Of a stretch of 64,000 nucleotides of DNA, positions 2,158 through 8,990 are shown piece by piece. The notes under the pieces are model-generated. The model saw nothing but the letters and a program-made list of their open reading frames with translations. It did no database searches and was not told where the DNA came from. Location: assembly GCA_009782475.1 (NCBI GenBank), contig WRIZ01000001.1:42020-106019 (forward strand), written 5' to 3'. This stretch comes from Oscillospiraceae bacterium (lineage in GTDB: Bacteria > Bacillota > Clostridia > Oscillospirales > UBA929). Position 1 is the stretch's first letter; each line of letters opens with the position of its first letter. A program made the translations under genes and the position numbers.

Positions 2158-3064
2158 CCCGCTCCTCCCTTAACCGTTTGATACAGCGGTCAAAATCCGC
2201 CGCTGTTGCGATGGACGAAATCTCCCTCTTATAATACGACGCGCAATGGAAACCACGAATATACCAACCCAAGTGCTTGCGCATTTCCAAACAGGCAACA
2301 CGCTCGCCCTTATCCTCCGTCAACAAACCGAAATGCCGCCCGGCTTTTTCCAAACGGCGGGCAACCGCCGGCTCCTCCCCGGTGAAAACAAAGGGGTTGC
2401 CCATCGCCGCCCGACCGATCATACCCGCCGCCGCCCCGGTGATGTTCAAGCATCTCTCCAAGTCGCGCAGAGAGAAAATATCGCCGTTGGCCGTGATTGG
2501 GACAGAGACGGCCTTGACCACCTCGGCGATGGCATACCAGTCGGCGTGCCCGGAATACATCTGCTTGCGCGTCCGCCCGTGGACGCAGAGGCCGGACACG
2601 CCCGCCCCTTCCAGCCGTTTGGCCAGTTCGGCGGCGTTTTTGCTGCCGCTGTCCCAGCCCAGCCGCATTTTGACAGTCACCGGGACTTTGACCGCGCCGA
2701 CGACTGCTTTCGCAATAGCTTCCGCCAAGTCCGGGGTTTGCATCAGGGCGCAGCCGTCGCCGTTTTTCACGATCTTCGGTGTGGGGCAGCCCATGTTGAT
2801 GTTGATTTCCGCCGCGCCGGAGATGTCCAACGCCCGCAGCGCGCCTTCGGCCATGCAGCCGGGATCGCTTCCGAAAATCTGCACCGTTTCGTCTTTGGAA
2901 ACGAGGCGCAGCAGCCCTAATGATTTTTTATCCTGATAACACAGGGCTTTGGCCGACACCATCTCGGTTGTTGTCTGCACATCGGCCGTTTCCTTACAAA
3001 TGGTGCGGAACGCCCAGTCGGTGACGCCTGCCATCGGCGCGAGCGCAACTCTCATTTCGCCCAA
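2144..3064 (-). CDS. dus: tRNA-dihydrouridine synthase
   Basis: LAPMAGVTDWAFR N-terminus, NMGCP and VHGRT motifs typical of the Dus TIM-barrel flavoenzyme; 306 aa. Confidence 0.9.
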   Translation of the reverse strand: MGEMRVALAPMAGVTDWAFRTICKETADVQTTTEMVSAKALCYQDKKSLGLLRLVSKDETVQIFGSDPGCMAEGALRALDISGAAEININMGCPTPKIVKNGDGCALMQTPDLAEAIAKAVVGAVKVPVTVKMRLGWDSGSKNAAELAKRLEGAGVSGLCVHGRTRKQMYSGHADWYAIAEVVKAVSVPITANGDIFSLRDLERCLNITGAAAGMIGRAAMGNPFVFTGEEPAVARRLEKAGRHFGLLTEDKGERVACLEMRKHLGWYIRGFHCASYYKREISSIATAADFDRCIKRLREERDGTV

Positions 3065-3774
3065 AAAACCACCCGCTCATCGCCTTGATCAGGCGGTTTC
3101 CCCTCCATCATCCCATACCGCCGGACGGTTTGAAACCCCGCTTCTTTCAAGGCTTCCTCCGCATAGTCCAACTCATACGCCCGCTCGGTGTGCACTTCGT
3201 CATACCGCCGCCACAACCCGCCGTCCTCACGGGCAAAGAGGGTTATATCCTGACGGATCAAGGGCGAATGCCACAAACAATGCCACACGCAATAGACGTC
3301 TTCGGCGTCCGCCATGAAAACCGCGCCGTTCCGGGCCGCCAGCGCGTCAGGGGTAAGCAGGTCGAAGACAAAAACGCCGCCCGGCTCTAAAAAAAGGCGC
3401 ACCCGTTCCAGGGTTTTGCAAAACTGTTTGGGGGTTTCCAAATAATTGAGGGCATCCAGCGTGCAGAACGCCGCCTCGACTGTGCCGTATAAGTCCAATT
3501 CCACTATATCTTGATGCAAGAATAACGCGCCGCAACCGCGCCCCTGCGCAACGGACAACATTTCAACCGAGTTGTCCACCGCCACCACATCACAGCCGCG
3601 CTCGCACAACGCTTCGGCCAGCCGCCCGGTTCCGCAGGCGAGGTCGAGCACCCGGCGCGGACGGCGGTCATCTTCCGAGCCGCCCGCCAGCCTGAGCAAG
3701 TAATCGGCATATCCGCCGTAATCCAAGTTGCGCATCAGCGCGTCATAGTGAGGCGCGAGGTGTTCGTAAGGCAT
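3052..3774 (-). CDS. Class I SAM-dependent methyltransferase
   Basis: Motif I VLDLACGTGRL and post-I DVVAVDNS. Start chosen at the internal ATG (MPYEHL) preceded by AGGAG 8 nt upstream. The ORF track extends to 3840. Confidence 0.8.
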   Translation of the reverse strand: MPYEHLAPHYDALMRNLDYGGYADYLLRLAGGSEDDRRPRRVLDLACGTGRLAEALCERGCDVVAVDNSVEMLSVAQGRGCGALFLHQDIVELDLYGTVEAAFCTLDALNYLETPKQFCKTLERVRLFLEPGGVFVFDLLTPDALAARNGAVFMADAEDVYCVWHCLWHSPLIRQDITLFAREDGGLWRRYDEVHTERAYELDYAEEALKEAGFQTVRRYGMMEGKPPDQGDERVVFWAK

Positions 3775-3788
3775 GGGGGATTCTCCTG

Positions 3789-3817
3789 TTGACAATATAT
3801 ATTCTCTTTGATATAAT
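3789..3817 (+). promoter_or_regulatory. Consensus sigma-A-type promoter driving a short plus-strand transcript
   Basis: TTGACA (3789-3794), 17-nt spacer, TATAAT (3812-3817), with an upstream TGn extended -10 (TGATATAAT). It points away from the methyltransferase gene. Confidence 0.65.
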
Positions 3818-3823
3818 ACTGGT

Positions 3824-3915
3824 AGATAACGAGGCGTCACCGATAAACGGTCAGCCTTAGTTAAACGGTGAAAATGACCGCCATCCCTTGGCTAGAGGGG
3901 CGGTCATTTTTCTTT
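3824..3915 (+). ncRNA. Candidate ~90-nt small RNA (putative antitoxin/antisense RNA)
   Basis: Bounded by the perfect promoter at 3789-3817 and the hairpin plus TTTTTCTTT terminator at 3874-3915. No convincing ORF or SD inside. The 3' part is antisense to the end of the 24-aa ORF. Confidence 0.4.
3874..3915. terminator. Bidirectional intrinsic terminator
   Basis: Stem ATGACCGCC (3874-3882) / GGCGGTCAT (3899-3907) plus an inner 3-bp extension. T5CT3 follows on the plus strand and TTTT on the minus strand. Confidence 0.7.
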
Positions 3916-3978
3916 GACTTCACGGATTATGTACAACACCAGCACAAATACCAGCACTGTAAATGCTCCTTCTATCAT
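3904..3978 (-). CDS. 24-aa hydrophobic peptide MIEGAFTVLVFVLVLYIIREVKEK (type I toxin-like)
   Basis: I translated this by hand, since it is below the ORF-track length cut-off. GGAGG sits 7 nt upstream of the ATG. The peptide is a single TM-like core with a charged tail, and the stop codon lies inside the terminator hairpin. Confidence 0.45.
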   Translation of the reverse strand: MIEGAFTVLVFVLVLYIIREVKEK

Positions 3979-3985
3979 GGCCTCA

Positions 3986-3999
3986 CCTCCTCTCGGAGG
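3986..3999 (-). promoter_or_regulatory. SD-sequestering hairpin in the 5' UTR of the small ORF
   Basis: The minus-strand RNA reads CCUCC-GAGA-GGAGG, and the 3' arm is the Shine-Dalgarno of the 24-aa ORF. Confidence 0.5.
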
Positions 4000-4039
4000 A
4001 TTGGCTAACCGCCTACCGTATAGGCAACGCCTCATGCGT

Positions 4040-4068
4040 ATTGTAGCGTACGAGACGCATTTTGTCAA
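4040..4068 (-). promoter_or_regulatory. Sigma-A-type promoter for the small-ORF transcript
   Basis: The minus strand reads TTGACA (4068-4063), 17-nt spacer, TACAAT (4045-4040). Confidence 0.6.
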
Positions 4069-4119
4069 TTCTTGCAAAATTAAATATCAGAAAAAGTCTT
4101 TTACTTAATATCTCCTTAA

Positions 4120-4971
4120 TTACTCGTCTGTTTCACCAAAATCATTTATATCCTCGATGACAATATCCGAAAAATCAATATCTATAATATCATTATTGCC
4201 ATCGTTATCATGAGGCTTTTTATATAAATCAACATTCGCCATAGGCAAAGTTGCTAGGTATCTCTGAAGTTGCTTTGCCATAGGTCTAAACCCGACGAAG
4301 GTAATAACTCCAGAAACCCCCGCTCCTAAAAGAGGGATTATTTTCCCAACACTCTTCGCGAATATTCCTCTAGTCATTCTTATGCCTATTAGTTTTGCTA
4401 TTTTTTTCACAATAGGATATATAGCTCCTTGGGTCAACGCCTTGCGGGCTAATGTCTTCTCTGCTTGTATTGCCATAGATTTTGCAATTTTTGCAATTAC
4501 GGCATTAGCAGCATTCACTCCAAACATAACACCAATAAATAAAGTGAGTTGAACAGATGTTTCGTCATCAAGCCCCTCTTTGTCGCAGTGGAATATTTCC
4601 TGCCAGCCGTAAAGGTAAGCAAGTTTTTGAAGAACCCTAACAATATGCCCGAAAAACTGAGCTATGTCCGCAGGAATGAAGGCCGCCATTGCCAAACCCC
4701 CCGGTATGCCTGTGACGGCAGATATGGCGGTTACTTTTGCTGTTTCATAATTGATGCATGCTTTTGCGATTTGCTCAAGATTCTTAACGCTTATCCCTGC
4801 TTGTGCGGGATTCGTTTCAATAGCCTTTTCGATAACTTTGTCCTCAAAATACCTTGATAGTTCTTTACGCAAGAAACTCTCCCGGTTGATCTTTATCCCT
4901 GGCAACTCCATTGCTGAATGAAGAACCATTTCAAATTTGCTGTTCTTAGCGGTGGCTTCTTGTGTTGGCAT
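4120..4971 (-). CDS. EcsC family protein
   Basis: Pattern TGIPGGLAMAAFIPADIAQFFGHIVRVLQKLAYLYGW matches the EcsC core (G..G...DI.....lr.iq.la..YG). The gene is AT-rich relative to its neighbours and has a strong GAGGAGG RBS. Confidence 0.6.
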   Translation of the reverse strand: MPTQEATAKNSKFEMVLHSAMELPGIKINRESFLRKELSRYFEDKVIEKAIETNPAQAGISVKNLEQIAKACINYETAKVTAISAVTGIPGGLAMAAFIPADIAQFFGHIVRVLQKLAYLYGWQEIFHCDKEGLDDETSVQLTLFIGVMFGVNAANAVIAKIAKSMAIQAEKTLARKALTQGAIYPIVKKIAKLIGIRMTRGIFAKSVGKIIPLLGAGVSGVITFVGFRPMAKQLQRYLATLPMANVDLYKKPHDNDGNNDIIDIDFSDIVIEDINDFGETDE

Positions 4972-4983
4972 AATATTTCCTCC

Positions 4984-5655
4984 TCATAGCCTATTCCCGC
5001 TTCCCAAACAGTTTGGGCAGACGGTGCGGCAGGTGTGGCATTTGAAGGTGAACTCTTCCCCCGGTTCGGTGTGAAAGGCGTGGGCGAAGCAGTCTCCCTG
5101 CTTCATTTCGGGATTGCCCAAAGCCTTGACGGGGCAGCTGTCGATACAGAGCGAACACCCCTCGGGGCAGGGGTCTCCGGCCAGCATGTCGTCCGGTTCC
5201 AGCCCGGCGTCGGTCAGCACCGCGTTCAGCCAAACCATGTTGCCGAACTCCGGCGTGACCAGCAGTGTGTTTTTCCCGATCCGGCCCAATCCGGCGGCGG
5301 CCGCGCTGTGCTTGGCCGACACCGCCCCGCGCCACCTGCCGGTTTTTGTATCTTCCCGCGTCGGGCTGATCGTCCCGGTGGGGACGGCGGTGACGCCCGC
5401 CTCTTCCATTTTGGCGCAGAATCGGACGGATAAAATGTCCAGTTCGGTGCTTAACGTGTTCCGGGTCACGGTGTAAGGGACGGTTGTTTCACAGCGGATT
5501 GTCCCGGCGGGAAACCGCTTGGCCAGCACGACGACCGTTTTACACGACGGCAGAATGTCGCAGGGGTGAAACCCCTCCGGCGCGCCGCCGAAGCGGTCTA
5601 TAGACGCGATGCCGCACAAATCCGCTCCCAAACCGAGAGCGATCTGTTTGACCAT
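4984..5655 (-). CDS. 4Fe-4S cluster protein, epoxyqueuosine-reductase/reductive-dehalogenase-like
   Basis: C-terminal ferredoxin motifs (CSLCIDSCP ... CHTCRTVCP) and an N-terminal DLCGIASIDRF typical of the QueG-like family. The start is 1 nt after the upstream stop. Confidence 0.6.
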   Translation of the reverse strand: MVKQIALGLGADLCGIASIDRFGGAPEGFHPCDILPSCKTVVVLAKRFPAGTIRCETTVPYTVTRNTLSTELDILSVRFCAKMEEAGVTAVPTGTISPTREDTKTGRWRGAVSAKHSAAAAGLGRIGKNTLLVTPEFGNMVWLNAVLTDAGLEPDDMLAGDPCPEGCSLCIDSCPVKALGNPEMKQGDCFAHAFHTEPGEEFTFKCHTCRTVCPNCLGSGNRL

Positions 5656-5656
5656 G

Positions 5657-6190
5657 TCAGCGTTCACAACGCATTCCCCATTCCTCCGCGAGCAAGCCGT
5701 ATTCATATGTATCGAGCCAAATCGGGTTCCCGGCTTGGTCTTTCTTAAAATAGATGTTCTTGATCAAATGCCCTTCCCTGCGCAGCCCCAGCCGTTCCAG
5801 CAGACGCCATGAAGGCATGTTCAGCGGGTTGCACATGGCGATGACCCGGCGTGCGTTTTGATTTCTAAACACATCGTCCAGCACAGCCCGCGCCGCTTCT
5901 GTCGCGTATCCTTTTCGGTGATAGTTTTTGTTGAACACATAGCCCAGTTCCCATCTGTCAAAGTCCTGTTTTGCCAAATAGATATTGCCGATCAGCTTTC
6001 CGCCGTCTTTCAGGCATACCGCGCGGAACGCGCTGTCTTCCGCCCTTCTGACCGCTTCTTTCTTGCTGGCTTCCTCCGAAAAAGGGTCGTACGGTTCGTG
6101 CTTCATCACTTCTTCGTCGGATAAATACTCAAATAAATCCGGCCAGTCGTCAGGCGTGAAGGGTCTTATCCTTAACCGTTCCGTCTCCAT
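5657..6190 (-). CDS. GNAT family N-acetyltransferase (RimJ/RimL-like)
   Basis: METERLRIRPFTPDDW N-terminus and a HRKGYATEA acetyl-CoA loop. The start is 1 nt after the prfA stop. Confidence 0.85.
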   Translation of the reverse strand: METERLRIRPFTPDDWPDLFEYLSDEEVMKHEPYDPFSEEASKKEAVRRAEDSAFRAVCLKDGGKLIGNIYLAKQDFDRWELGYVFNKNYHRKGYATEAARAVLDDVFRNQNARRVIAMCNPLNMPSWRLLERLGLRREGHLIKNIYFKKDQAGNPIWLDTYEYGLLAEEWGMRCER

Positions 6191-6191
6191 T

Positions 6192-7259
6192 TTACTCCCC
6201 CGAACCGGCAAGCTGCGCGGCTTGGTCGGCCGCCGCGAGGGTATCGATCAGCTCGTCCAAGTCGCCGTCCATCACGCTTTGGATTTTATAGAGCGTCAGG
6301 TTGACGCGGTGGTCGGTGACCCGCCCCTGCGGGAAATTATAGGTGCGCACCCGCTCGCTGCGGTCGCCGCTGCCGACTTGGCTGCGCCGTTCACTCCCGC
6401 GCGCCTCGTCCAGCTCGCGCTGCTTTTTCTCATAGAGCTTGGCACGCAGCACCTTCATGGCTTTGTCCTTGTTTTTGTGCTGGCTGCGCTCATCCTGGCA
6501 TTCCACGGCGATCCCGGTGGGTTTGTGGACGATGCGGATGGCGCTCTCGGTTTTATTGACATGCTGACCGCCCGCCCCTCCGGCGCGGCAGGTGATGATG
6601 TCGAGGTCTTCTGGAACGATTTCTATATCGACTTCTTCCGCCTCCGGCAGCACCGCCACCGTCGCCGCCGACGTGTGCACCCGGCCTTGCGATTCGGTGT
6701 CGGGGACGCGCTGGACGCGGTGGGCTCCCGATTCGTATTTCAGGCGCGAATAAGCTCCGGCTCCCGCAATTTGCACTTGCAGCTCTTTCACGCCGCCCAG
6801 CTCGGTTTCGTTGGAGGATAGAATCTCGGTTTTCCAGCGGTTGCGCTCGGCGTACATCGAATACATCCGCCACAGCGCGGCGGCAAACAGCGCGGCTTCT
6901 TCGCCGCCTACCCCGCCGCGTATCTCCATGATGACGTTCTTCTGATCGTTTGGGTCGCGCGGGAGGAGGAGTTTTTTCAGTTCCTCCAGCAGTTGCTCCT
7001 TTTTCCCTTGCAACGCACCGCATTCTTCGTAGGCCATGGTTCGCACGTCGGGGTCTTCGTCTTCCAGCATGGCGCGGGCTTCCGTTTCCTGCGCCTCCGT
7101 TTGCAGGAGAGTGCGGTAAACCTCTGTCACCGGCGCGATCTCTTTCTGCTCGCGCAGCAGGGTTGTCATACGCTCCGGGTCGGTATAAACGTCAGGCTGC
7201 GCCAGCGACTCCTCGATTTCCGAAAATCGCCGCTCGATCTCTTTCAGTTTTTCCAGCAT
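6192..7259 (-). CDS. prfA: Peptide chain release factor 1
   Basis: 355 aa with the GGQ motif ([16 protein letters not shown]), [10 protein letters not shown] and [20 protein letters not shown]. It has its own ATG with AGGAG 7 nt upstream (7267-7271). Confidence 0.93.

Positions 7260-8990
<1,731 letters not shown>

What the first reader, a model, noticed from the sequence alone, without database searches (positions are those of the whole stretch)
3789..4068. Candidate type I toxin-antitoxin locus: 24-aa hydrophobic peptide versus a convergent small RNA
All elements are visible in the DNA. (a) On the minus strand, TTGACA-17-TACAAT (4068-4040) drives a transcript whose 5' UTR folds CCUCC-GAGA-GGAGG (3999-3986), so the SD is in the 3' arm. 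(b) The ORF is ATG 3978 to TGA 3904 and encodes MIEGAFTVLVFVLVLYIIREVKEK, one TM-like helix with a charged tail. (c) On the plus strand, a perfect TTGACA-17-TATAAT with a TGn extension (3789-3817) starts a ~90-nt transcript with no credible ORF. (d) Both transcripts end in the same bidirectional hairpin (3874-3907), which contains the toxin stop codon, so the RNAs are complementary at their 3' ends. Established knowledge: 3'-overlapping convergent toxin mRNA/antitoxin RNA pairs with SD sequestration and small hydrophobic toxins define Firmicute type I systems (txpA/RatA, bsrG/SR4, fst/RNAII). The locus lies in an AT-rich islet with an EcsC-family gene.
Basis: partly seen in the sequence, partly recalled or inferred. 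Interest (0 to 1): 0.65.

Follow-up and report, generated by a model that had tools for sequence, protein, structure and literature searches.

The report
Diverged BsrG-like type I toxin-antitoxin module
This 280-bp stretch is a self-contained toxin-antitoxin cassette (a 24-residue membrane peptide gene facing a small antisense RNA gene) that belongs, by its RNA parts, to the well-known TxpA/BsrG family of Gram-positive bacteria and their phages, so it is a new, diverged member of a known kind, not a new kind of system.

Summary
The type I toxin-antitoxin reading is supported by homology, not only by resemblance. A pattern scan found a second copy in an unrelated metagenome contig (L022). It has a 24-aa peptide that is 15/24 identical and the same promoters, SD hairpin, terminator and convergent RNA. 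Leader-motif scans of viral contigs found about 25 more modules with this architecture. Nine of 25 peptides in this scaffold (window and L022 included) match Pfam Hol_Tox, the TxpA/BsrG family. One toxin mRNA gives a sub-threshold Rfam BsrG hit. Covariance models built without the window hit its plus-strand RNA (58.1 bits, E 3e-12) and its toxin leader (70.7 bits, E 3.5e-17). The ORF is under purifying selection (pS 0.80, pN 0.20). Relatives' synteny shows the module lies in a lineage-specific insertion. Three things differ from the Bacillus subtilis prototypes. The peptide matches no toxin profile. The RNAs overlap only about 45 nt, through a shared bidirectional terminator as in par/fst. Both RNAs carry a mirrored 5' domain. 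No expression or toxicity data exist. Verdict: new member of a known kind, moderate interest.

The parts
4040..4068 (-). Toxin promoter: TTGACA (4068-4063), 17-nt spacer, TACAAT (4045-4040). Predicted TSS about 4033.
   Evidence: 11/12. The -35 is conserved in L022 and L064. A promoter sits at the same distance from the leader in most family members.
4003..4031 (-). Toxin mRNA 5' domain GGCGUUGCC-UAUA-CGGUAGGCGGUUAGCC. It has a small hairpin plus the GGCGGUUA element, which repeats the terminator 3' arm.
   Evidence: The stretch is nearly invariant across the window, L022 and L064. It is part of the CM R2 hit, 70.7 bits. The Rfam BsrG consensus pairs this element with ..AACCGCC at the ORF end.
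3986..3999 (-). SD-sequestering hairpin CCUCC-GAGA-GGAGG. The SD is 3990-3986. The helix is extended by GCC(4005-4003)/GGC(3984-3982).
   Evidence: P unpaired <0.07; -7.8 kcal/mol. In L022 the stem is kept and the loop changed (GAAG). Family members keep an anti-SD/SD helix with CCCCC/GGGGG variants.
3904..3978 (-). Toxin ORF of 24 aa, MIEGAFTVLVFVLVLYIIREVKEK. The stop TGA (3906-3904) lies in the terminator 5' arm.
   Evidence: The L022 homologue MLEWIFTILVLVLFLYIIRELKRK is 15/24 identical. Between the two, pS is 0.80 and pN 0.20, with 9/2/13 differences at codon positions 1/2/3.
3871..3910 (.). Bidirectional intrinsic terminator shared by both RNAs. Arms are 3871-3882 and 3899-3910. This is the only certain region of mRNA/sRNA complementarity (about 45 nt with the tails).
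   Evidence: The helix covaries across 25 family members: 5 pairs change on both sides, 27 cells, and 0 of 500 shuffles reach the observed cell count, percentage paired or covariation score.
3789..3817 (+). Antitoxin sRNA promoter: TTGACA, 17-nt spacer, TGaTATAAT. Predicted TSS about 3824.
   Evidence: 12/12 plus TG. A convergent promoter sits at the same position in L022, L064 and most family members, with a mean of 10.4/12 matches against 9.6/12 for toxin promoters.
3820..3915 (+). Candidate antitoxin sRNA of about 90 nt. It has a 5' stem-loop domain (GGCGUCACCGAUAAACGGUCAGCC, 3833-3856), a linker and the terminator.
   Evidence: CM R1, built from 25 other loci, scores 58.1 bits, E 3.3e-12, over the full model length. 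Fold z = -5.8. No Rfam family matches.
3813..3840 (-). Weak candidate promoter for the downstream methyltransferase operon (GTGACG-16-TATTAT). Its -10 is the mirror of the sRNA -10, and the predicted TSSs are 18 bp apart. It is context, not part of the TA module.
   Evidence: 9/12. The geometry matches bidirectional promoters as described in PMC10268837. This is an inference.

Best explanation
Window 3789-4068 is an autonomous type I toxin-antitoxin cassette of the TxpA/BsrG (Hol-Tox) lineage. It was acquired horizontally by this Oscillospiraceae MAG.

The minus strand makes a toxin mRNA of about 165 nt. Its SD is locked in a 5-bp G/C hairpin. Its 24-codon ORF encodes a single-helix membrane peptide with a charged tail. 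The plus strand makes an sRNA of about 90 nt from a consensus promoter.

The two RNAs end in the same bidirectional terminator, so their 3' ends (about 45 nt, including the toxin stop codon) are perfectly complementary.

Shown here: the anatomy, the conservation of both RNAs and of the peptide, purifying selection on the ORF, and the accessory location.

Inferred by analogy with bsrG/SR4, txpA/RatA and par: the sRNA is made in excess. It contacts the mRNA through the complementary terminator loops. The duplex is cut by RNase III and the mRNA is degraded. Pairing may also reinforce SD occlusion by freeing the leader element GGCGGUUAGCC to extend the SD helix (GCC/GGC). When the sRNA decays, the peptide is made and damages the membrane.
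For: Architecture is confirmed.

A second locus, L022, lies in a different gene context, between a YidC-like gene and a type IV pilus operon. It keeps every element and a 24-aa peptide that is 15/24 identical. The ORF shows pS 0.80 against pN 0.20 and 2 of 24 second-position changes against 13 of 24 third-position changes.

About 25 further modules in viral contigs share the leader, the SD helix, a K-rich tail, stop+CCGCC inside the terminator, and a convergent sRNA.

CMs built without the window hit the window sRNA (58.1 bits, E 3.3e-12) and the leader (70.7 bits, E 3.5e-17).

The L064 toxin matches Pfam Hol_Tox at 39.1 bits, above the gathering score of 23.3. Nine of the 25 peptides scanned match. 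Rfam BsrG scores 25.1 bits, E 2e-4, on the L064 toxin mRNA, aligned over the SD helix, the ORF and the 5'-3' helix.

The terminator helix covaries.

In relatives the order DegV - ABCF::RF1 - MTase - Dus is uninterrupted, so window 3775-6190 is an insertion.

Published mechanisms. RBS sequestration in 4-5 GC pairs and 3' binding with degradation are reported for B. subtilis systems (PMC6562991). SR4 extends the SD helix from 4 to 8 bp (PMC3834814). par RNAs share a terminator (PMC4147584). TxpA-like toxins occur in Clostridiales (PMC2887945).
Against: There are no transcript, toxicity or rescue data.

The window peptide matches no toxin profile. Pfam and NCBIfam return nothing relevant. A profile built from 25 toxins (23 from the scaffold modules plus two plasmid Hol_Tox-like peptides, L065 and L066) gives 5.7 bits, while shuffled peptides reach 9.6. 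It lacks the YEAL N-terminal motif.

Rfam BsrG does not hit the window.

The overlap is about 45 nt and lies entirely in two stable hairpins, against 100-140 nt in the B. subtilis systems.

Extra sRNA-5'/TIR pairing is not significant (p 0.017, 0.09, 0.21 in three loci; p 0.26 and 0.05).

Only one copy exists in the 64 kb.

Family loci were retrieved by the leader motif and filtered on GGCT[AG]ACC. Invariance of those motifs is therefore partly by construction.
Confidence: 0.75

Rival explanations
1. The cassette is homologous, but the peptide is not a toxin in the addiction sense. It is a small membrane protein with another role, for example a phage-derived holin-like, exclusion or ComI-like modulator. 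The antisense RNA simply tunes its expression.
For: The peptide lies outside Hol_Tox and lacks the family's N-terminal motif. The L064 peptide also resembles the competence inhibitor ComI (NCBIfam 27 bits, below cut-off). There are weak BhlA-holin similarities. Published work notes that some family members are not toxic on overexpression (YhzE-2; TxpA in E. coli; PMC2887945).
Against: The tight double lock (sequestered SD plus a strong convergent sRNA promoter), its conservation in two unrelated contexts and its membership of a scaffold that carries bona fide Hol_Tox toxins are what is expected of a product that must be kept off.
Confidence: 0.15
2. It is a decaying remnant. The cassette was inherited from a phage or island, the toxin has been truncated to 24 aa and inactivated, and the RNAs are relics.
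For: This is the shortest peptide in the family, it gets no profile match, and only one copy is present. Degenerate copies do exist: L128 has a frameshifted ORF and L111 lacks the sRNA side.
Against: The window and L022 keep the same 24-codon length, with saturated synonymous change and few non-synonymous changes. Both promoters are near-consensus. The leader and the sRNA score as full-length family members.
Confidence: 0.07
3. It is not a TA. The small ORF is a leader peptide or attenuator for the downstream methyltransferase operon. The plus-strand RNA is a by-product of a bidirectional promoter shared with that operon, and the hairpin merely ends the upstream EcsC operon.
For: The stop codon sits inside the terminator. 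The sRNA -10 mirrors a weak minus-strand -10, with TSSs 18 bp apart (PMC10268837). The module lies between two co-directional operons.
Against: The same cassette occurs in L022 and in about 25 viral contigs with unrelated neighbours and no methyltransferase. In relatives the methyltransferase follows the ABCF::RF1 gene directly, with no leader. The methyltransferase is a generic class I enzyme, not Erm-like.
Confidence: 0.03

Closest known systems
bsrG/SR4 (B. subtilis SPbeta prophage; Rfam BsrG RF01412; toxin family Pfam Hol_Tox PF16935)
   Same: Both have a small hydrophobic toxin with a K-rich tail and an SD buried in 4-5 G/C pairs. Both have a 5' leader element that can pair with the region at the ORF end. 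Both have a convergent sRNA complementary to the 3' end, and both reside in a prophage or accessory region. Family member L064 aligns to the BsrG model over the SD helix, the ORF and the 5'-3' helix, and its toxin is Hol_Tox.
   Different: The window peptide (24 aa) is not recognised by Hol_Tox. No BsrG hit falls on the window. bsrG has about 120 nt of 3' UTR overlapping the 180-nt SR4, and each RNA has its own terminator. Here the RNAs share one terminator and overlap by only about 45 nt. Here the sRNA 5' domain mirrors the toxin leader.
txpA/RatA (B. subtilis skin element) and E. faecalis EF3263 with its ~110-nt antisense RNA
   Same: They belong to the same toxin superfamily as the scaffold's typical toxins (MSxYExL...). 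They have a 3'-overlapping convergent antisense RNA, and degradation depends on RNase III (PMC3531473, PMC2887945).
   Different: TxpA is 59 aa and its RBS is a very long SD rather than a simple hairpin. The overlap is longer (about 75-120 nt).
par of pAD1: fst (RNA I) / RNA II
   Same: The RNAs converge and share a bidirectional terminator. The overlap does not reach into the coding region proper, first contact is between complementary terminator loops, and the toxin is small (33 aa) (PMC4147584; PMC6562991).
   Different: Fst is an unrelated toxin family. par has direct repeats (DRa/DRb) that make the 5' ends complementary and block the RBS. This locus has inverted repeats, so the 5' domains are alike rather than complementary, and no significant second pairing site was found.
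Listeria rli28 (Rfam RF01492, filed as an sRNA)
   Same: It gives a sub-threshold match (31.2 bits, gathering score 45) to the L064 toxin mRNA. The match spans the leader, the SD and an MSVYE-like reading frame.
   Different: It does not hit the window. Its status as a toxin mRNA is my reading of the alignment, not a curated annotation.

Membership tests
Type I toxin-antitoxin system (general) | Small (<60 aa) hydrophobic peptide with a predicted transmembrane helix and its own SD and start codon | tested here: met
   The 24-aa ORF has GGAGG 7 nt upstream and is the most hydrophobic SD-preceded small ORF in the window. It is under purifying selection against L022.
Type I toxin-antitoxin system (general) | Antisense RNA gene with its own promoter whose transcript is complementary to the toxin mRNA | tested here: met
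   A 12/12 promoter with TG extension drives an RNA of about 90 nt that ends in the shared terminator. The RNA is a full-length member of a conserved convergent sRNA family. This is sequence-level evidence only.
Type I toxin-antitoxin system (general) | Both RNAs are expressed, the peptide is toxic on overexpression, and the RNA neutralises it | not testable with these tools
   No transcriptome or experiment is available.
TxpA/BsrG toxins (Pfam Hol_Tox PF16935) | Peptide scores above the family gathering threshold (N-terminal MSxYE(A/S)L motif, TM helix, K-rich tail) | tested here: not met
   The window and L022 peptides get no Hol_Tox hit even at E<=10. A custom HMM from 25 toxins (23 scaffold, 2 plasmid) gives 5.7 bits, which is not significant. 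Relatives in the same scaffold do meet the criterion: L064 at 39.1 bits, and 9 of the 25 peptides scanned.
BsrG toxin mRNA (Rfam RF01412) | Score at or above the gathering score of 55 bits | tested here: not met
   There is no hit on the window. L022 scores 13.4 bits and L064 25.1 bits (E 2e-4), both sub-threshold.
bsrG/SR4-, txpA/RatA-type systems of B. subtilis | RBS sequestered in 4-5 G/C base pairs | tested here: met
   The CCUCC/GGAGG helix has 5 bp and P(unpaired) below 0.07. It is conserved with loop changes in L022 and L064. The criterion comes from PMC6562991.
bsrG/SR4-, txpA/RatA-type systems of B. subtilis | Long 3' complementarity of 100-140 bp between antitoxin and toxin mRNA | tested here: not met
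   The predicted overlap is about 45 nt, consisting of the terminator and its tails only. It would be longer only if the toxin mRNA reads through the terminator.
bsrG/SR4-, txpA/RatA-type systems of B. subtilis | Residence in a prophage, island or other accessory DNA | tested here: met
   The module lies within a 2.4-kb insertion that is absent from three relatives. Family members are on IMG/VR contigs, for example beside a tRNA-Met gene and a terminase gene.
par (fst/RNAII)-type systems | Convergent RNAs sharing a bidirectional terminator | tested here: met
   The 12-nt arms are perfect, with U-tracts on both strands. The helix covaries in the family.
par (fst/RNAII)-type systems | Direct repeats giving a second, 5' complementarity that masks the RBS; Fst/Ldr-family toxin | tested here: not met
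   The repeats are inverted, not direct. Trans pairing to the TIR is not significant. The peptide has no Fst-family match.
New scaffold family defined here (leader R2 + sRNA R1) | Full-length significant match to covariance models built from other loci | tested here: met
   R2 hits window 3976-4047(-) at 70.7 bits, E 3.5e-17. R1 hits window 3820-3915(+) at 58.1 bits, E 3.3e-12.

The most novel reading that the evidence does not exclude
The mirrored 5' domain is functional rather than a relic of duplication. The toxin leader and the antitoxin both carry GG.G.U.CC-loop-(..)GGUUAGCC, whose GGCGGUUA core repeats the 3' arm of the shared terminator. Each RNA could therefore toggle between a 5'-3' closed form and the terminator. 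The two RNAs could then exchange strands at two symmetric sites, or bind one common protein. That would be a symmetric two-RNA switch not described for bsrG/SR4, txpA/RatA or par. A corollary is that the conserved RNA scaffold acts as a chassis carrying interchangeable membrane peptides, since 16 of 25 peptides scanned fall outside Hol_Tox.
Probability: 0.2. Interest if true: 0.55.

Novelty: new member of a known kind. Interest (0 to 1): 0.38.

Why it matters
Type I toxin-antitoxin loci are almost invisible to standard annotation. This peptide is below gene-caller length limits, is absent from a 15-billion-protein collection, and matches no profile. The locus was recognised only through its RNA scaffold. 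That scaffold is a conserved toxin leader plus a convergent sRNA with no Rfam family, and it is common in phage contigs. Two covariance models (R1, R2) now exist and could map this lineage across Clostridia and their phages. The case also shows a TxpA/BsrG-lineage system using the par-style shared terminator with minimal overlap. That makes it a compact test bed for how a 3'-end contact alone can silence a toxin mRNA. For this genome the cassette marks a recent insertion that split an ancestral operon (ABCF::RF1 - methyltransferase). The insertion may have supplied the downstream operon's promoter.

Tried and rejected
Searches that found nothing:
- Protein-level searches for the peptide or the 57-aa extended ORF. 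These were search for related loci (query too short), the search for homologous proteins (no candidate), exact cluster look-up (absent), and tblastn against plasmids and phages (no match).
- blastn of the locus against plasmids.
- An exact 32-mer in viral contigs.
- The first metagenome pattern, which required E3, G4 and Y16. It failed because the homologue has W4.

Synteny routes. Methyltransferase relatives show the empty site but no homologue of the module. EcsC-like relatives sit in unrelated contexts without the module, so the EcsC link is coincidental.

Readings considered and rejected:
- Erm-type leader-peptide attenuation. The methyltransferase is a generic class I enzyme and relatives lack any leader.
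- A by-product of a bidirectional promoter. The sRNA is conserved where no divergent gene exists.
- A MITE with terminal inverted repeats. No target-site duplication is seen, and the repeats are transcribed RNA domains with promoters.
- A fragment of a larger membrane-protein gene. No homologue shares words with the extended frame.

A par-like second pairing site between the sRNA 5' end and the SD/AUG region was tested and is not significant. A differential TG extension at antitoxin promoters held in three loci but not family-wide (13/27 against 15/27).

Full report
OBSERVATION.
- The minus strand carries TTGACA-17-TACAAT (4068-4040, 11/12). The plus strand carries TTGACA-17-TGaTATAAT (3789-3817, 12/12).
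- Only four TTGACA-N16-18-TAnAAT sites occur in the 64 kb, and two of them flank this locus.
- The minus-strand RNA contains CCUCC-GAGA-GGAGG (3999-3986), with the SD 7 nt before ATG 3978. In the folded ensemble the SD bases are unpaired with probability below 0.07.
- The ORF (3978-3904) encodes MIEGAFTVLVFVLVLYIIREVKEK. It is the most hydrophobic SD-preceded small ORF in the window by a wide margin.
- The hairpin has perfect 12-nt arms at 3871-3882 and 3899-3910 and holds the TGA stop. It is followed by U-tracts in both directions.
- The plus-strand RNA folds at z = -5.8 and has no credible ORF.
- Rfam returns nothing meaningful for the window.

CONTEXT. The organism is an Oscillospiraceae MAG.
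- To the left lie a class I methyltransferase (3052-3774), Dus, an ECF sigma factor and a zf-HC2 anti-sigma factor.
- To the right lie an AT-rich EcsC-like gene (below the Pfam threshold), a QueG-like Fe-S protein, an acetyltransferase and a 932-aa ABC-F::RF1 fusion ORF.
- In three relatives (methyltransferase 68-71% identical) the order is DegV - ABCF::RF1 - methyltransferase - Dus - sigma - anti-sigma, with no gap. Window 3775-6190 is therefore an insertion.
- The EcsC-like gene occurs as a singleton in unrelated contexts elsewhere, never with this module.

FINDING HOMOLOGUES. Protein-based and BLAST-based searches all failed. So did a first peptide pattern.

A pattern requiring an anti-SD/SD hairpin, an ATG and hydrophobic codons found L022 among 46 metagenome hits.
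- L022 has a 24-aa ORF, MLEWIFTILVLVLFLYIIRELKRK, with 15/24 identity.
- It has the same toxin promoter and a near-identical leader (CGGTAGGCGGTTAGCCAAT..CCTCCGAAGGGAGGTGAGGC).
- It has a terminator holding the stop codon and a convergent TTGACA-17-TGnTAAAGT promoter.
- Its neighbours are a YidC-like gene and type IV pilus genes.
- Between the two ORFs, synonymous sites are saturated (pS 0.80) while pN is 0.20. Differences fall 9/2/13 on codon positions 1/2/3. The peptide is therefore translated and constrained.

The leader motif then retrieved L064 from viral contigs, and broader motifs retrieved about 25 more modules.

IDENTITY OF THE FAMILY. L064 lies between a tRNA-Met gene and a terminase small-subunit gene.
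- Its peptide MSVYEALALMIAFAVLIVILLEYIDKRK matches Pfam Hol_Tox at 39.1 bits, against a gathering score of 23.3.
- Its mRNA matches Rfam BsrG at 25.1 bits (E 2e-4, sub-threshold). The match covers the SD helix, the ORF and a long-range helix joining GGCGGUU of the leader to AACCGCC at the ORF end.
- Short blastn matches on Bacillaceae and Lactococcus plasmids are unannotated MSVYEAL-type ORFs.
- Nine of the 25 peptides scanned (23 from the other modules plus the window and L022) match Hol_Tox. The other 16, including the window and L022, do not.
- A profile built from 25 toxins (23 scaffold, 2 plasmid) ranks the window peptide first among the window's own reading frames, but the score is not significant (5.7 bits, with shuffles reaching 9.6).

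The RNA evidence is decisive.
- A covariance model of 25 convergent sRNAs, built without the window, hits window 3820-3915(+) at 58.1 bits, E 3.3e-12, over its full length.
- A model of 13 leaders, also built without the window, hits 3976-4047(-) at 70.7 bits, E 3.5e-17.
- The shared terminator helix covaries: 5 pairs change on both sides, covering 27 cells, and 0 of 500 shuffles reach the observed cell count, percentage paired or covariation score.
- Promoters sit at fixed distances on both sides. sRNA promoters are slightly nearer to consensus (10.4 against 9.6 of 12).

MECHANISM. The following is shown: two convergent promoters, a sequestered SD, a constrained membrane peptide, 3' complementarity through a shared terminator, and an accessory location.

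The following is inferred from bsrG/SR4, txpA/RatA and par (PMC6562991, PMC3834814, PMC4147584). The sRNA is in excess and contacts the mRNA by complementary terminator loops. The duplex is cut by RNase III and the mRNA is degraded. Pairing may also let the leader GCC pair with GGC after the SD, lengthening the SD helix from 5 to 8 bp. That would parallel the change from 4 to 8 bp seen with SR4.

A second pairing site between the sRNA 5' end and the SD/AUG region exists at the homologous place in three loci. It is not significant (p 0.017, 0.09, 0.21).

WHAT IS DIFFERENT.
1. The toxin is the shortest in the family (24 aa). It lacks the MSxYExL motif and escapes every profile.
2. The overlap is about 45 nt, through a par-like shared terminator, not the 100-140 nt of the B. 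subtilis systems.
3. The sRNA 5' domain is a same-sense copy of the toxin leader, which appears as an inverted repeat in the DNA. In L022 the repeat is 36 nt at 81% plus 19 nt at 89%, and the feature is family-wide. Its core, GGCGGUUA, equals the terminator 3' arm, so each 5' domain can pair with the 5' arm in cis or in trans. Covariation for this pairing is mixed: the window supports it and L114 does not.
4. The sRNA family has no Rfam entry.

RIVALS.
- A non-toxic regulated membrane peptide cannot be excluded without experiments (0.15).
- A decaying remnant is unlikely given purifying selection and near-consensus promoters (0.07).
- A leader-peptide or bidirectional-promoter by-product is essentially refuted by context-independent conservation (0.03).

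VERDICT. This is a new, diverged member of the known TxpA/BsrG-type type I TA lineage. TxpA-like toxins were already reported in Clostridiales (PMC2887945). Interest is moderate. The find is unsurprising in kind, but it shows that an RNA scaffold, rather than the peptide, identifies these loci.

CAVEATS. Family loci were ascertained by the leader motif and filtered on an 8-nt sRNA motif. CM E-values come from a shortened calibration. No expression data exist.

Noticed in passing
window 6192-8990 (-); also L011 2214-4964, L012 2092-5004, L013 2198-4939: A single 932-aa ORF fuses an ABC-F ATPase to a complete RF1-like release factor. The ABC-F part has two ABC domains plus the ABC_tran_Xtn linker. 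The RF1 part has PCRF and RF-1 domains, GGQ at residue 807, PDT where RF1 has PxT, and a canonical RF1 N-terminus from M578. The same 913-970-aa fusion ORF is called in three other Oscillospiraceae contigs, so it is conserved. It could be a true fusion or a stop-less ABC-F gene read into prfA, which has an internal start.
   Followed up: partly
window 3806-3840: The perfect sRNA -10 (TATAAT, 3812-3817) is the mirror image of a weak minus-strand -10 (TATTAT, 3818-3813; -35 GTGACG, 3840-3835). That minus-strand promoter faces the methyltransferase operon, and the predicted TSSs are 18 bp apart, which is the canonical bidirectional-promoter geometry (PMC10268837). The inserted cassette may therefore supply the promoter of the operon it cut off from its ancestral upstream gene.
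   Followed up: partly
window 4042/4043; L001 end, L005 and L006 starts: Contigs from two assemblies (megahit k141 and Logan k31) break exactly at 4042, inside the toxin -10 box, and overlap by k. Some variant in those samples therefore shares the sequence from 4042 downward but differs upstream. The variant itself was not recovered.
   Followed up: partly
window 4120-4971 (-); L014, L015/L016, L017: The AT-rich EcsC-like gene (GC 0.35-0.45 in a 55-60% GC genome) has more than 1000 homologues across Clostridia, up to 76% identical. That exceeds the 71% of the nearest core-gene orthologue. It sits as a lone gene in unrelated neighbourhoods, which suggests frequent horizontal transfer of a single gene.
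   Followed up: partly
L018, L030, L031, L033, L036, L051, L053, L055; L027/L056/L062; L025/L046: The metagenome pattern scan also picked up other conserved small hydrophobic ORFs behind CCUCC..GGAGG hairpins. One is MFK[EKR]W[IV]LLIM.. (35-38 aa, 8 contigs). Others are MFEIILVLILVMMLLDR (17 aa, 3 contigs) and MLWTILGVVIVIVVIVGVLVATGVVGR (27 aa, 2 contigs). They are unrelated to this family and may be further unannotated toxin-like peptides.
   Followed up: no
L064 640-774 (+): Rfam rli28, filed as a Listeria sRNA, matches the L064 toxin mRNA at 31.2 bits (gathering score 45). Its consensus spans an SD and a reading frame that begins like MSVYE. rli28 may therefore be a TxpA/BsrG-type toxin mRNA rather than a non-coding sRNA.
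   Followed up: no
L128 (toxin ORF), L111 (downstream of toxin): Degenerate family members exist. In L128 the toxin frame no longer ends at the stop inside the terminator, which suggests a frameshift. L111 has the leader and toxin but no convergent sRNA domain.
   Followed up: no
L096, L099, L103, L109, L111, L116 leaders: A subgroup of the family has a longer leader, with an extra conserved element (CCUCUCCGGAGGGACUGUGACCCUCCG...) between the 5' domain and the SD. Its toxins have a distinct type..[IL]E[GS]L..C.G.GY..G...KTQK, and are not matched by Hol_Tox.
   Followed up: no
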